From: an uncultured Clostridium sp.
Lineage (GTDB): Bacteria; Bacillota; Clostridia; TANB77; CAG-508
Assembly (NCBI GenBank): GCA_948471115.1
Contig: CAOKRJ010000001.1
Location: 35,999-99,998, forward strand
Direction: 5' to 3'
DNA length: 64,000 nucleotides
Shown here: positions 12,374 through 14,527 of the stretch, piece after piece
Layout of the letters: the number at the start of each line of letters is the position of its first letter
How positions within the stretch are numbered: the stretch's first letter is position 1
Notes under the pieces: generated by a model
The model's database searches: none
What the model was told of the DNA's origin: nothing
What the model saw: the letters and a program-made list of their open reading frames with translations, nothing else
Made by a program: the position numbers and the translations under genes

Positions 12374-14527
12374 ATGAGTGAACAACAAAATAATAATCTA
12401 GAACAAGAGATAGATGAAAATAGACTTATACAAATTAGAAAGGAAAAATTGATTGAATTGCAAAAAAACGGTCAAGATCCATTTGCAATAACAAAATATG
12501 ACAGAACACATACAAGTAAACAAATTAGAGATAAATATGAAGAATTAGAAGAAAAAGATGTAAGTATTGCAGGACGAATAATAGCAAAAAGAATAATGGG
12601 AAAAGCTTCTTTTTGCACATTACAAGACAGTGAAGGGAAAATTCAAAGTTATGTAAGTATAAATGATATAGGAGAAGAAGAATATAATGCATTTAAGACA
12701 TGGGATATTGGAGACATTATCGGCATAAAGGGTTTTGTATTTAAAACGAAAACAGAAGAAATATCAATACATGCAGAGGAAGCAATATTGCTTACAAAAT
12801 CTTTGAGACCATTACCAGAAAAATTTCATGGTTTAAAAAATGAAGATTTAAGATATAGACAGAGATATCTTGACTTAATAGTAAACCCAGAAGTAAAAGA
12901 AAAATTTATAAAAAGAAGTAAAATATTAAAAGAAATTAGAAACTTTATGGATGAAAGGGGATATATGGAAGTAGAAACACCTATGCTAACAACAGTAGCA
13001 ACAGGTGATGCAGCAAGACCTTTTATTACACATCATAATACACTTGACTTACAAATGTATCTAAGAATTGCACCGGAATTAAATCTAAAAAGATTAATTG
13101 TTGGAGGATTCGATAAAGTATATGAGATTGGTAAGAACTTTAGAAATGAAGGAATGGATATTAAGCATAATCCAGAATTTACAGTTATGGAATTCTATTC
13201 TGCATATGAAGATTATAATGATATGATGAATATTGCAGAACAATTAATTTCTACTGTCGCACAAAATGCTTTAGGAACAACAAAAATAAACTACCAAGGA
13301 ACAGATATAGATTTAACTCCATCATGGAGGAGAATTACAATGATAGATGCAATTAAAGAAGTAACAGGAGTTGACTTTAACACAATTAATTCAGACAAAG
13401 AAGCACAAGAGTTAGCAAAAGAAAAAGGTGTAGAATATGAAGAATATAAAAATACTAGAGGACATATCATTAATGAGTTCTTTGAAAATTTTGTTGAAGA
13501 AACGCTAATTCAGCCAACATTTATAATTGACTATCCAGTAGAAGTATCTCCACTTACTAAAAGAAAAAAGGATAATCCTAGTTTAGTTGAAAGATTTGAA
13601 TTATTTATAGGTGGAAGAGAATATGGAAATGCTTACTCAGAACTAAATGATGCAATAGACCAATATGAAAGATTTATGAAACAAGTAGAAGCAAAAGAAA
13701 AGGGAGATGAAGAAGCAGGAGGAATGGACGAAGACTTTGTTAATGCACTAGAAATAGGATTACCACCAACAGGAGGAATGGGGATAGGATTAGACAGATT
13801 AATTATGTTATTAACAGATTCAGCATCAATAAGAGATATAATATTTTTCCCAACAATGAAACCAATTAATAATACAAATATGAAAAAGTCAAAAGTAACA
13901 GAAAGTAAAGAAAAAATAGACACTGCTAGTAAAAATAATAATTTTGAAACAAAAATAGATAGAGAAGAAGCAATAAAATTATTAAAAAAATATAATAACG
14001 AGGAATTTCATATAAGACATGCACTTACAGTTGAGCAAGTTATGAAATACTTTGCGAAAAAATATAATGAAAACGAAGAGTTTTGGGGATTAGCAGGATT
14101 ATTACATGATATAGATTATGAAATGTATCCAGAAGAACATTGTAAAAAAGCACCAGAGATATTAAAAGAAATTAACTCAAGTGAAGAATTAATACATGCA
14201 ATATGTAGTCATGGATATGGAATATGCTCTGATATCATGCCAGAACATCAAATGGAAAAGATACTATTTGCAATAGATGAATTATCAGGATTAATATGGG
14301 CAGCAGCAAAAATGAGACCGTCACAAAGCACAAAAGATATGGAACTAAAAAGCTTAAAGAAAAAATATAAAGATAAAAAATTTGCTGCAGGATGTTCAAG
14401 AGAAATTATTGATAGGGGTGCAACTACTTTAGGATGGGAATTAGACGAATTATTACAAAGTACACTCGAAGCAATGCAAGAGATGGAGGACGAAATTCAA
14501 AAAAGTGTAAATCAGTATATTAATTAG
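12374..14527 (+). CDS. lysS: lysine--tRNA ligase fused in frame to a C-terminal HD-superfamily phosphohydrolase domain (about 220 aa extension)
   Basis: A class II LysRS core (N-terminal OB fold, motifs through [24 protein letters not shown]) continues without a stop into [11 protein letters not shown]...[11 protein letters not shown]...[10 protein letters not shown]...FAIDELSG...[11 protein letters not shown], which are HD-domain metal-binding motifs. The start is set at 12374 (MSEQQNN); the ORF opens at 12353. Confidence 0.85.

What the first reader, a model, noticed from the sequence alone, without database searches (positions are those of the whole stretch)
12374..14527. Lysyl-tRNA synthetase fused in frame to an HD-superfamily phosphohydrolase domain
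LysRS normally ends a few residues after the FFPTMKP-type motif at about 500 aa. Here the frame stays open for about 220 more codons.

- The extension encodes a complete HD-type metal-dependent phosphohydrolase: HIRH...LLHDIDYE...H...H...D, with a KDKKFAAG tail like COG2316/YqeK-type HD proteins.
- There is no internal RBS or start signal at the junction.
- LysRS is the classical cellular source of Ap4A, and YqeK-class HD hydrolases degrade Ap4A. A covalent synthetase-hydrolase pair would therefore be functionally provocative, a futile-cycle guard or an alarmone editor.
- The alternative is that a stop codon between two adjacent genes was lost or mis-sequenced.
Basis: partly seen in the sequence, partly recalled or inferred. 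Interest (0 to 1): 0.7.

Follow-up and report, generated by a model that had tools for sequence, protein, structure and literature searches.

The report
Lysyl-tRNA synthetase fused to HD hydrolase
The gene is a real, conserved fusion of the housekeeping lysyl-tRNA synthetase to an apparently active metal-dependent HD phosphohydrolase of an uncharacterised family; the same fusion arose several times in gut bacteria, which links that enzyme family to LysRS chemistry (Ap4A-type by-products or tRNA-Lys).

Summary
Window 12374-14527 (+) is one 717-codon ORF: a complete class-II LysRS (residues 1-497), a 30-residue low-complexity linker, and a complete HD/HDIG module (residues 528-717).

It is not a sequencing artefact:
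- The fusion occurs in 22 of 80 species-representative genomes.
- About 55 protein clusters at 90% identity carry it.
- It has arisen at least three, probably four, times: low-GC gut Clostridia, a Lachnospiraceae MAG, cultured Atopobiaceae (Olsenella and relatives), and a fourth lineage.

Selection on the HD module is as strong as on LysRS (dN/dS 0.04-0.10 versus 0.02-0.08). The linker evolves almost neutrally. All candidate metal ligands are invariant.

In some strains mobile DNA inserts exactly at the domain junction and splits or destroys the HD part. No paper in the searched library describes the fusion, and databases call it plain "lysine--tRNA ligase".

The parts
12270..12298 (+). Promoter-like site (TTGATT-17-TATAAT) upstream of lysS::HD
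   Evidence: 10 of 12 consensus matches. This is a consensus match only. There is no leader RNA, T-box or L-box (no Rfam hit in the whole window).
12355..12362 (+). Shine-Dalgarno-like GGAAAGGA, 11 nt before the ATG
   Evidence: Read directly from the sequence.
12374..14527 (+). lysS::HD fusion CDS, 717 codons plus stop
   Evidence: The exact protein is also present in public collections (NCBI and ENA) on two contigs, the longer 108 kb.
12374..13864 (+). Class-II lysyl-tRNA synthetase module (residues 1-497)
   Evidence: TIGR00499 679 bits (cutoff 427.6) and NF001756 733 bits (cutoff 468). The LysRS model ends at residue 497.
12560..12790 (+). Anticodon-binding OB fold (residues 63-139)
   Evidence: PF01336, E = 3e-15.
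12839..13858 (+). Class-II catalytic core (residues 156-495)
   Evidence: PF00152, E = 5.6e-95, profile positions 1-307 of 308. The class-II core residues are invariant in 49 fusions.
13856..13873 (+). ATGAAACCAATTAATAAT (M-K-P-I-N-N): unoccupied attachment core for mobile DNA at the LysRS/linker boundary
   Evidence: homology breakpoints of L081, L082, L084, L085 and L086 converge on 13854-13875. The 18-bp core is duplicated at the left junction (L081) and the right junction (L082).
13865..13954 (+). Linker (residues 498-527), rich in K/N/E/S and low in complexity
   Evidence: mean pairwise identity 33%, length 23-42 residues; dN/dS 0.1-1.1; pLDDT below 50.
13955..14524 (+). HD/HDIG phosphohydrolase module (residues 528-717)
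   Evidence: for the family assignments. AF2 model with pLDDT 97.4, all-helical; mean pairwise identity 83% among fusions; dN/dS 0.04-0.10.
14018..14020 (+). H549, first His of the HD motif
   Evidence: Invariant in A1, A3 and A4, and in the 30-member family alignment A2.
14105..14110 (+). H578-D579, the HD doublet (followed by invariant D581 and E583)
   Evidence: Invariant in all alignments.
14138..14140 (+). H589, candidate ligand for a second metal
   Evidence: Invariant in the fusions and present in at least 90% of family alignment A2.
14210..14212 (+). H613, candidate ligand for a second metal
   Evidence: Invariant in the fusions and present in at least 90% of A2.
14276..14278 (+). D635, last Asp of the HD motif (followed by E636)
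   Evidence: Invariant in the fusions and present in at least 90% of A2.
14357..14401 (+). Basic signature K662-K-K-x-K-D-K-x-F-A-x-G-x-x-R676 ([15 protein letters not shown])
   Evidence: K662, K663, K664, K666, D667, F670, A671, G673 and R676 are invariant in the 49 fusions of A3. K668 is invariant in A1 and A4 only. Its role (phosphate or RNA binding) is inferred.
14539..15267 (+). M50-family membrane peptidase gene, 11 nt downstream (same probable operon)
   Evidence: The same lysS-M50-tsaD-metallophosphoesterase synteny occurs in unfused relatives.
15854..16846 (+). tsaD (tRNA t6A synthesis), followed by the first terminator-like hairpin at 16894-16910
   Evidence: PF00814, E = 1e-100. 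for the terminator-like site.

Best explanation
The gene encodes a bifunctional protein. The N-terminal part is the organism's housekeeping class-II LysRS. A disordered tether of about 30 residues joins it to an independently folding, catalytically competent metal-dependent HD phosphohydrolase. That hydrolase belongs to an uncharacterised family, mostly standalone proteins of about 190 aa, with an HDxD[YWF]E signature and a KKKxKDKxFAAG basic motif.

Proposed mechanism (inferred):
1. The LysRS active site makes lysyl-AMP.
2. When ATP or another NTP attacks the lysyl-AMP, dinucleoside polyphosphates such as Ap4A, Ap3A and Ap4N are formed. Possibly Np4 caps on RNA are formed too.
3. The tethered HD module hydrolyses these phosphoanhydride products at their source, in fixed 1:1 stoichiometry with the synthetase. 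This limits alarmone or by-product output.

This parallels the NadD-YqeK fusions.

Shown here:
- The fusion is real, recurrent and under strong purifying selection.
- All candidate metal ligands are intact.
- The linker is a flexible tether.
- HD is dispensable for LysRS. Natural split and HD-deleted variants exist.

Inferred: catalytic activity, and above all the identity of the substrate.
For: Architecture and reality:
- Domain assignments.
- 22 of 80 species genomes carry one continuous frame.
- About 55 clusters at 90% identity are full-length fusions of 696-733 aa.

Recurrence, always with LysRS:
- P0291/Atopobiaceae (GC 61%), P0379 (GC 35%) and L043 (GC 50%) all pass TIGR00499.
- Their LysRS cores are only 40-60% identical to the window's, their linkers are unrelated and their genomic contexts differ.
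- Fused HD modules sit in at least four places in the HD tree, each next to unfused members.
- *Collinsella* has the module unfused, while the sister family Atopobiaceae has it fused.

Constraint:
- Mean pairwise identity is 83% for HD, 76% for LysRS and 33% for the linker.
- dN/dS is 0.04-0.10 for HD, 0.02-0.08 for LysRS and 0.1-1.1 for the linker.

Catalytic competence: H549, H578-D579, H589, H613 and D635 are invariant. This H..HD..H..H..D pattern resembles the dinuclear site of YqeK (PMC8177086).

Link to Ap4A:
- LysRS and LysU are documented Ap4A producers and can Np4-cap RNA in vitro (PMC10148737).
- The best PDB sequence-profile hits are YqeK Ap4A hydrolases 8jja, 2ogi, 8wmy, 3ccg and 2o08, at E = 0.002-0.02.
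- Weak hits fall on the YqeK half of NadD-YqeK (PRK07152) and on an NTP-transferase-HD fusion (NF045665).
- Precedent: a NadD-YqeK fusion in which the HD domain clears dinucleotide by-products (PMC9426524).

Specificity: every aaRS fusion found is to LysRS. Ap4A chemistry explains this; a general tRNA role does not.
Against: - The module is not YqeK: 15.9 bits against TIGR00488 (cutoff 70.15), and only 11 of 30 family members reach E ≤ 0.1.
- The PDB hits cover only the generic H..HD helices.
- The Arg three residues before the first His, described as pivotal in HD phosphatases (PMC8177086), is H546 here. R548 at position -1 is not invariant.
- The best-matching named model is the HD half of archaeal Trm56-HD (23 of 30 members, whole module). 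One lineage adds a tRNA_bind domain after HD. Both point to tRNA rather than Ap4A.
- Standalone members occur in Clostridia, where YqeK is widespread (PMC10148737). A plain duplicate Ap4A hydrolase would therefore be redundant. Co-occurrence in the same genomes was not tested.
- Gene neighbourhoods give no support.
- No fixed LysRS-HD interface is predicted.
Confidence: 0.4

Rival explanations
1. tRNA-directed phosphoesterase or tRNA-handling module. The HD domain would act on tRNA (tRNA-Lys in particular). One possibility is removal of 2',3'-cyclic or 3'-phosphate ends left by ribonuclease damage before re-charging. Another is that it simply contributes to tRNA binding.
For: - The closest named NCBIfam model is the C-terminal HD half of archaeal tRNA C56 2'-O-methyltransferase (PRK12703). 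It is matched by 23 of 30 family members over the whole module, with best E = 1e-9.
- The only thing LysRS and Trm56 share is tRNA.
- In *Parafannyhessea umbonata* a PF01588 tRNA-binding domain follows HD directly.
- The family has an invariant, strongly basic KKKxKDKxFAAG motif.
- Other partners found are Barstar and GIY-YIG, both from RNA or nuclease contexts.
- From my own knowledge, not tested here: the HD domain of E. coli CCA-adding enzyme has 2',3'-cyclic phosphodiesterase activity, and tRNA-Lys is the target of PrrC-type anticodon nucleases.
Against: - Every aaRS fusion found is to LysRS and none to another synthetase. A general tRNA-end function does not predict this.
- Unlike GlyRS-beta, where the HD doublet is degenerate (Ser-Lys; PMC8464048), all metal ligands are intact here. 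A purely structural role is therefore unlikely.
- The Trm56-HD relationship is distant (31-34 bits).
- A tRNA_bind domain could simply help LysRS.
Confidence: 0.3
2. An active HD hydrolase with a substrate unrelated to either Ap4A or tRNA ends. Candidates include another nucleotide second messenger, dNTP/NMP, lysyl-adenylate or a lysine-pathway phosphometabolite. In this case the fusion would serve co-expression or regulation of LysRS.
For: - The family is uncharacterised and roughly equidistant from PgpH, HD-GYP, (p)ppGpp and ppApp hydrolases, dNTPases and YqeK.
- The flexible tether and the absence of a predicted interface fit simple co-expression.
- In one Lacrimispora-like clade the standalone gene lies next to aspartate kinase, a lysine-pathway enzyme.
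Against: - Three or four independent fusions to the same partner are hard to explain without a specific functional link.
- The aspartate kinase adjacency is confined to one clade.
- No conserved operon exists elsewhere.
Confidence: 0.25
3. Artefact or pseudogene: a stop codon or frameshift between two adjacent genes was lost through sequencing or assembly error, or the HD part is a decaying remnant.
For: - The neighbouring gerAA gene in the same window is broken into three ORFs, so indels or pseudogenes do exist in this assembly.
- Some related genomes have separate cistrons (L023, L024).
Against: - The identical 717-aa protein appears on other contigs, and 93%-identical 716-aa proteins come from independent assemblies.
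- 22 species genomes, plus cultured Atopobiaceae with complete genomes, carry the fusion.
- dN/dS of the HD part is 0.04-0.10.
Confidence: 0.02

Closest known systems
NadD-YqeK fusions (mycoplasmas; PRK07152) and the nadD-yqeK operon
   Same: An adenylyl-transferring enzyme is covalently joined to an HD(IG) diphosphatase that hydrolyses dinucleotide products and by-products (PMC9426524). The window's module gives weak hits to the YqeK half of that model.
   Different: The partner is an aminoacyl-tRNA synthetase, not NadD. The HD module belongs to a different family and fails TIGR00488. No activity has been measured.
YqeK (COG1713, TIGR00488), the symmetrical Ap4A hydrolase of Firmicutes
   Same: - HD fold of similar size, about 190 aa.
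- An H..HD..H..H..D pattern of conserved residues.
- Best sequence-profile hits in the PDB.
- Its substrate is made by LysRS.
   Different: - 15.9 bits against a cutoff of 70.15.
- Similarity is confined to the first two motif helices.
- No Arg at position -3 from the first His.
- The ligand spacing differs.
- The C-terminal half is distinct and carries the KKKxKDKxFAAG motif.
- No nadD linkage is seen in the window.
HD domain of the bacterial GlyRS beta-subunit
   Different: In GlyRS-beta the His-Asp doublet is degenerate (Ser393-Lys394). The domain is an integral, non-catalytic part of tRNA acceptor-arm recognition (PMC8464048). Here all ligands are invariant, the module is tethered by a disordered linker, and it also exists as a standalone protein.
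Archaeal Trm56-HD (NCBIfam PRK12703)
   Same: An HD module of the same broad family is fused C-terminally to a tRNA enzyme. The whole module aligns (profile positions 171-337 of 339).
   Different: The partner is a SPOUT methyltransferase and the match is distant (31-34 bits). To my knowledge the function of that HD half is also unknown.
LysX (MprF-LysRS, PRK02983) and other LysRS fusions or paralogues
   Same: It is a bacterial class-II LysRS core joined to a second enzymatic domain that uses or handles a LysRS product.
   Different: In LysX the partner is an N-terminal lysyl-phosphatidylglycerol synthase and the LysRS is a dedicated paralogue. Here the partner is a C-terminal hydrolase on what synteny indicates is the housekeeping lysS.

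Membership tests
Class-II lysyl-tRNA synthetase (LysS, TIGR00499 / NF001756) | Score above the curated equivalog cutoff over the full-length model | tested here: met
   TIGR00499 679.4 bits (cutoff 427.6), residues 16-497 on profile positions 3-494 of 496. NF001756 732.8 bits (cutoff 468).
Class-II lysyl-tRNA synthetase (LysS, TIGR00499 / NF001756) | N-terminal OB anticodon-binding domain plus a complete class-II catalytic core | tested here: met
   PF01336 residues 63-139; PF00152 residues 156-495, profile 1-307 of 308. Core residues are invariant in 49 fusions.
Class-II lysyl-tRNA synthetase (LysS, TIGR00499 / NF001756) | Lysine activation and tRNA-Lys charging activity; being the sole housekeeping copy | not testable with these tools
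   Synteny with the unfused lysS of relatives (lysS-M50-tsaD; greA-lysS) suggests it is the housekeeping gene. Whole genomes could not be scanned for a second lysS.
HD superfamily (PF01966) / HDIG subclass (TIGR00277) | Score above the curated cutoffs, with the H...HD...D motif present | tested here: met
   PF01966 31.1 bits (cutoff 22); TIGR00277 34.8-37.7 bits (cutoff 27.6). H549, H578-D579 and D635 are invariant.
YqeK Ap4A hydrolase (COG1713, TIGR00488) | Score above the equivalog cutoff | tested here: not met
   15.9 bits against a cutoff of 70.15. Only 11 of 30 family members reach E ≤ 0.1, with best E = 2e-4.
YqeK Ap4A hydrolase (COG1713, TIGR00488) | Six-ligand dinuclear site H..HD..H..H..D (H21, H50, D51, H83, H109, D127 in PMC8177086) | tested here: inconclusive
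   Six conserved candidates exist (H549, H578, D579, H589, H613, D635). Their spacing differs from YqeK.
YqeK Ap4A hydrolase (COG1713, TIGR00488) | Conserved Arg about three residues before the first His (HD phosphatase signature, PMC8177086) | tested here: not met
   Position -3 is H546. R548 at position -1 is replaced in the Atopobiaceae fusions.
YqeK Ap4A hydrolase (COG1713, TIGR00488) | Genomic linkage to nadD | tested here: not met
   No NadD-motif ORF in the 64-kb window, and none next to any of the loci held. The rest of the genome was not available.
YqeK Ap4A hydrolase (COG1713, TIGR00488) | Symmetrical hydrolysis of Ap4A to 2 ADP | not testable with these tools
   This needs an enzyme assay.
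GlyRS-beta-type structural (non-catalytic) HD domain | A degenerate His-Asp doublet, with the domain integrated in the tRNA-binding body of the synthetase | tested here: not met
   The HD doublet and the other ligands are invariant. The module is joined by a disordered, variable linker. The contrast is with Ser393-Lys394 in EcGlyRS (PMC8464048).
Trm56-HD (PRK12703) | Score above the equivalog cutoff (434 bits), including the SPOUT methyltransferase half | tested here: not met
   31-34 bits, and only profile positions about 167-337 (the HD half) align.
COG2316 'predicted hydrolase (HD superfamily)' | Assignment by the COG profile | not testable with these tools
   No COG library is available. 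JGI names a 74-75%-identical standalone homologue (P0103) 'predicted hydrolase (HD superfamily)'. That is the COG2316 name as far as I recall. No paper in the library mentions COG2316.

The most novel reading that the evidence does not exclude
The HD module is not a free-nucleotide hydrolase. Instead it would be an RNA-end phosphoesterase working on the synthetase's own macromolecular substrates. It could heal 2',3'-cyclic or 3'-phosphate ends of nuclease-damaged tRNA-Lys, or remove the Np4 caps that LysRS can put on RNA. LysRS would then act as a repair or decapping platform. This would define a new class of aaRS-appended catalytic domain and assign a function to the related archaeal Trm56-HD fusions.
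Probability: 0.2. Interest if true: 0.85.

Novelty: new variant of a known kind. Interest (0 to 1): 0.62.

Why it matters
Independent, repeated fusion of one uncharacterised enzyme family to one particular synthetase is among the strongest purely genomic indicators of a shared function. The family has about 1,700 clusters at 50% identity (E ≤ 1e-10).

- If the module degrades Ap4A-type nucleotides, these bacteria couple alarmone synthesis and destruction in a single polypeptide. That would make the long-debated question of whether LysRS-derived Ap4A is a signal or a by-product directly testable. Natural fused, split and HD-deleted alleles are available for the test.
- If it acts on tRNA or RNA ends, it is a new kind of catalytic appendage on an aminoacyl-tRNA synthetase.

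There is also an annotation blind spot. These proteins are all labelled plain "lysine--tRNA ligase", including those in cultivable Olsenella and Parafannyhessea. In Actinomycetota the HD part falls below Pfam's threshold.

Tried and rejected
- **Sequencing-artefact or lost-stop explanation.** Rejected because of the number of independent assemblies and species and the dN/dS values.
- **YqeK membership.** Tested and failed.
- **Gene-neighbourhood inference for standalone HD genes.** I clustered ±3 neighbours in 73 loci and read three curated records. No conserved operon emerged. The neighbours were AraC, ClpP, DUF523, aspartate kinase, Dabb, Rrf2, CarD and others.
- **Full-length AlphaFold model.** It was meant to reveal a LysRS-HD interface. 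It gave pTM 0.48 with a disordered linker, and parts of the LysRS core were poorly modelled as a monomer from a narrow alignment. It is uninformative.
- **Fold search against AFDB50.** The library is not installed, so fusion partners of structural neighbours could not be listed.
- **Model coordinates.** They are not exposed, so metal-site geometry and the position of the basic motif relative to the active site could not be measured.
- **Rfam scan.** No hits in the window, so there is no T-box or L-box leader.
- **Search for a YqeK, NadD or HD paralogue.** None was found in the window or in any held locus.
- **HD module on mobile DNA.** It appears only on non-mobilizable megaplasmids or chromids, so there is no evidence for transfer on mobile elements.
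- **Primary YqeK paper (PMC7186459).** Not held.
- **Literature searches.** Searches for the fusion, COG2316, Trm56+HD and LysRS+HDIG found nothing.
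Full report
**1. Observation**

Window 12374-14527 (+) is a single ORF of 717 codons. Residues 16-497 match the bacterial lysS equivalog TIGR00499 at 679 bits (cutoff 427.6). The OB anticodon-binding domain covers residues 63-139. The class-II core covers residues 156-495 and spans the whole Pfam profile. Residues 548-638 match PF01966 (31 bits, cutoff 22), and residues 547-613 match the HDIG model TIGR00277 (35-38 bits, cutoff 27.6).

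Unfused relatives stop 2-6 codons after FFPTMKP: MKPLA*, MKPLN*, MKPLNNT* and MKPINNI*. The extension of about 220 codons is therefore real.

The only ATG in the junction is at 13880 (M503). It has no Shine-Dalgarno sequence upstream and is not conserved in the orthologues. A promoter-like site lies at 12270-12298. No leader RNA is present. The first terminator-like hairpin comes after tsaD at 16894. The gene therefore probably heads an operon lysS::HD-M50 peptidase-DUF3592-tsaD.

**2. Not an artefact**

The exact protein is in the public collections (NCBI and ENA) on two contigs, the longer 108 kb. Proteins reported as 100% identical (717 aa) and 93%-identical 716-aa proteins come from further contigs. 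About 55 distinct clusters at 90% identity are full-length fusions of 696-733 aa. Where NCBI names them, it calls them only "lysine--tRNA ligase".

Among the 80 best loci from one-genome-per-species contigs, 22 have LysRS and HD in one open frame of 714-764 codons. One more (L015) is cut by a contig end. These are low-GC (about 27%) uncultured Clostridia from mouse, rabbit and other guts.

**3. Recurrence**

An exhaustive search of 1.84 billion representatives with the HD module found 3,821 relatives (1,726 at E ≤ 1e-10), mostly standalone proteins of about 190 aa. Among the best 150 hits listed, the only two long ones (P0291, 752 aa; P0379, 705 aa) are both LysRS-HD fusions. They score 600 and 511 bits on TIGR00499. 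Their overall identity to the window protein is 46% and 40%. Their linkers are unrelated.

Their loci have 61% and 35% GC and different neighbours: greA-lysS::HD, rather than the gerA operon / lysS::HD-M50-tsaD arrangement of the window.

P0291 stands for a large set of cultured Atopobiaceae (Actinomycetota). These are *Olsenella phocaeensis*, *O. massiliensis*, *Tractidigestivibacter scatoligenes* and *Paratractidigestivibacter*, at 739-787 aa. In *Parafannyhessea umbonata* a PF01588 tRNA-binding domain has been added after HD, giving 918-936 aa. *Collinsella*, in the sister family, has the module unfused. L043, a Lachnospiraceae MAG with 50% GC, is a further case.

In a neighbour-joining tree of HD modules the fused ones fall in at least four places, each beside unfused members. 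The tree has no support values. Combined with the differences in GC, context, linker and LysRS divergence, I conclude that there were at least three, probably four, independent fusions. All were to LysRS and none to another synthetase.

**4. Constraint**

Values among the 23 fused genes of the Clostridia set:

| Part | Mean pairwise identity | dN/dS, ten close pairs |
|---|---|---|
| LysRS core | 76% | 0.02-0.08 |
| Linker (23-42 residues) | 33% | 0.1-1.1 |
| HD module | 83% | 0.04-0.10 |

The following residues are invariant in the six- and eight-sequence alignments spanning all lineages. All but S652 and K668 are also invariant in the 49-fusion alignment:
- H549, H578-D579, D581, E583, H589, H613 and D635-E636.
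- R648-P649 and S652.
- The basic block K662-K-K-x-K-D-K-x-F-A-x-G-x-x-R676.

The module is therefore a functional enzyme-like unit, not a remnant.

**5. What the HD module is**

Alone it folds with very high confidence: pLDDT 97.4, pTM 0.93, all-helical.

Foldseek finds nothing below E = 0.01.

A family profile against PDB sequences finds YqeK Ap4A hydrolases first. The matches have E = 0.002-0.02 and cover only the two motif helices.

Against curated models, the module fails YqeK (15.9 bits against 70.15). Its best named matches are HD halves of other fusion proteins: archaeal Trm56-HD (23 of 30 family members, whole module), a DVU_1551-type NTP-transferase-HD, and NadD-YqeK.

The Arg that lies three residues before the first His in HD phosphatases (PMC8177086) is His546 here.

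The family is thus a distinct, uncharacterised branch of HDIG-like proteins. JGI calls a homologue "predicted hydrolase (HD superfamily)". From memory that is the COG2316 name, and I could not test it.

**6. Mechanism**

The shown facts are these:
- A housekeeping LysRS, by synteny with the unfused lysS of relatives.
- A disordered, fast-evolving tether.
- An intact HD site.

My preferred inference (about 0.4) is that HD hydrolyses dinucleoside polyphosphates, or Np4 caps, generated at the LysRS active site. LysRS and LysU are the classical Ap4A sources and can Np4-cap RNA in vitro (PMC10148737). The NadD-YqeK fusion is a direct precedent for an adenylyl-transferase joined to an HD by-product hydrolase (PMC9426524). 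The exclusive choice of LysRS as partner is explained by this reading.

The main rival (about 0.3) is a tRNA-directed role. It is supported by the Trm56-HD relationship, the tRNA_bind addition in *P. umbonata*, the basic motif and the GlyRS-beta resemblance. Against a purely structural role, GlyRS-beta has a degenerate HD doublet (PMC8464048) while this module does not. Against a general tRNA-end role, no other aaRS is ever the partner.

A third possibility is an unrelated substrate (about 0.25).

Neighbourhoods of standalone genes do not discriminate between these.

**7. The junction is a hotspot for mobile DNA**

Strain-level relatives at 92% nucleotide identity are interrupted exactly at window 13854-13875:
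- **L082, L084 and L085.** They carry PemK toxin, an 84-aa ORF and a 400-aa tyrosine integrase. These are followed by ATGAAACCACTTAATAAT and the linker-HD part, which is called as a 222-aa protein starting MKPLNN.
- **L081.** lysS ends MKPLNNT*. Foreign DNA carrying a Fic gene follows, and only the last 60 or so codons of HD remain.
- **L086 and L090.** lysS ends MKPLA* or MKPLN*, followed by foreign DNA.

An 18-bp motif, TTTAATGAGTTTTAATAA, marks the insertion boundaries in L023, L081, L082, L086 and L090. It is absent from the uninterrupted sites. The integrase is a generic phage or satellite type, at about 30% identity.

Two species have HD as a separate cistron downstream of lysS. L024 has lysS-Fic-HD, with a GTGAGG RBS before HD, followed by further genes, M50 and tsaD. 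L023 has HD after five intervening genes.

Others have lysS-M50-tsaD with no HD in the slot.

LysRS therefore works without a covalent HD, and HD can be lost. This fits an accessory clean-up or repair role rather than a role in aminoacylation itself.

**8. Comparison and novelty**

Known kinds to which this is related are synthetases with appended accessory domains, the NadD-YqeK fusions, the GlyRS-beta HD domain, and LysX.

I found no description of a LysRS-HD fusion in 8 million full texts. The proteins are in public databases under an uninformative name. In Actinomycetota the HD domain is below Pfam's gathering score (18-19 bits against 22).

I rate it a new variant of a known kind, with interest 0.62. 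The architecture is certain and recurrent. The biochemical function is open and directly testable, and cultivable carriers exist.

Noticed in passing
window 13856-13873; L081 5480-6360; L082 2480-2720; L084; L085; L086 2800-3010: The LysRS/linker boundary is an integration hotspot. In 92%-identical strains a tyrosine-integrase element carrying a PemK toxin, or other foreign DNA, is inserted there. An 18-bp core, ATGAAACCACTTAATAAT, is present at both junctions. LysRS is left ending MKPLNNT* or MKPLA*. The HD part is left as a separate 222-aa ORF that starts at the MKP methionine.
   Followed up: partly
L081 5503-6552: A natural HD-deleted allele. After the truncated lysS, about 850 bp of foreign DNA (a 59-aa ORF and a Fic gene) replaces the linker and the first 150 or so codons of HD. 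Only the part corresponding to window 14329-14509 remains.
   Followed up: partly
L023 2403; L081 5502, 5512, 6331; L082 2583; L086 2848; L090 6513, 6523: An 18-bp motif, TTTAATGAGTTTTAATAA (up to 3 mismatches), marks the boundaries of every insertion at the lysS 3' end. It is absent from uninterrupted sites; the window has only chance-level matches. These could be recombinase arm sites or cassette boundaries.
   Followed up: partly
L002, L003, L004 (between the HD stop at ~6669 and M50); L024 5375-5980; L090 6631-7418: The slot between lysS(-HD) and the M50 gene holds variable cargo in different species: Fic (201 aa), an FtsH-like AAA protease (591-599 aa), a dCMP deaminase and small membrane proteins. 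It behaves as an accessory-gene hotspot on both sides of the HD module.
   Followed up: no
L008 (LysRS 4522-6012, HD 6091-6654): A mosaic gene. Its LysRS core is 92% identical to the window's, but its linker (27%) and HD (80%) resemble the L005-L007 group. This suggests recombination at or near the junction.
   Followed up: no
P0425, P0448 (Parafannyhessea umbonata, 928-936 aa): A triple fusion LysRS-HD-tRNA_bind (PF01588, residues 829-926), preceded by a disordered linker of about 100 residues. It is annotated only as lysine--tRNA ligase.
   Followed up: partly
P0269 (279 aa), P0278 (282 aa): Other partners of the same HD family are an N-terminal Barstar domain (RNase inhibitor) and an N-terminal GIY-YIG nuclease domain. 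Each is a single cluster representative at 50% identity. They were not checked for gene-calling errors.
   Followed up: no
window 10391-12069 (-): The GerA-family spore germination gene directly upstream (divergent) is split into three overlapping ORFs. They match PF03323 positions 3-257, 254-355 and 355-465. That implies two frameshifts, so it is a pseudogene or the assembly has indels.
   Followed up: partly
P0407, P0425, P0514 and other Atopobiaceae fusions: The HD module scores 18-19 bits on PF01966, below the gathering cutoff of 22. Precomputed Pfam annotation and product names therefore miss the domain entirely.
   Followed up: yes
window 555-1730 (+); 31606-32202 (+): The window contains a second HD protein, dGTPase-like (HD plus HD_assoc, 391 aa), and a DUF5662 protein. 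Neither is related to the fused module.
   Followed up: partly
window 1-64000: No Rfam family reaches its gathering score anywhere in the 64-kb window. There is no riboswitch, T-box or other Rfam-modelled structured RNA (no tRNA or rRNA family match either).
   Followed up: no
L040, L046-L048, L050, L052, L053, L064: In a Lacrimispora-like clade the standalone HD gene sits in a conserved block: AraC-type regulator, ClpP, DUF523-like protein, HD, a 159-aa ORF, then aspartate kinase. The adjacency to a lysine-pathway enzyme may be coincidental.
   Followed up: no
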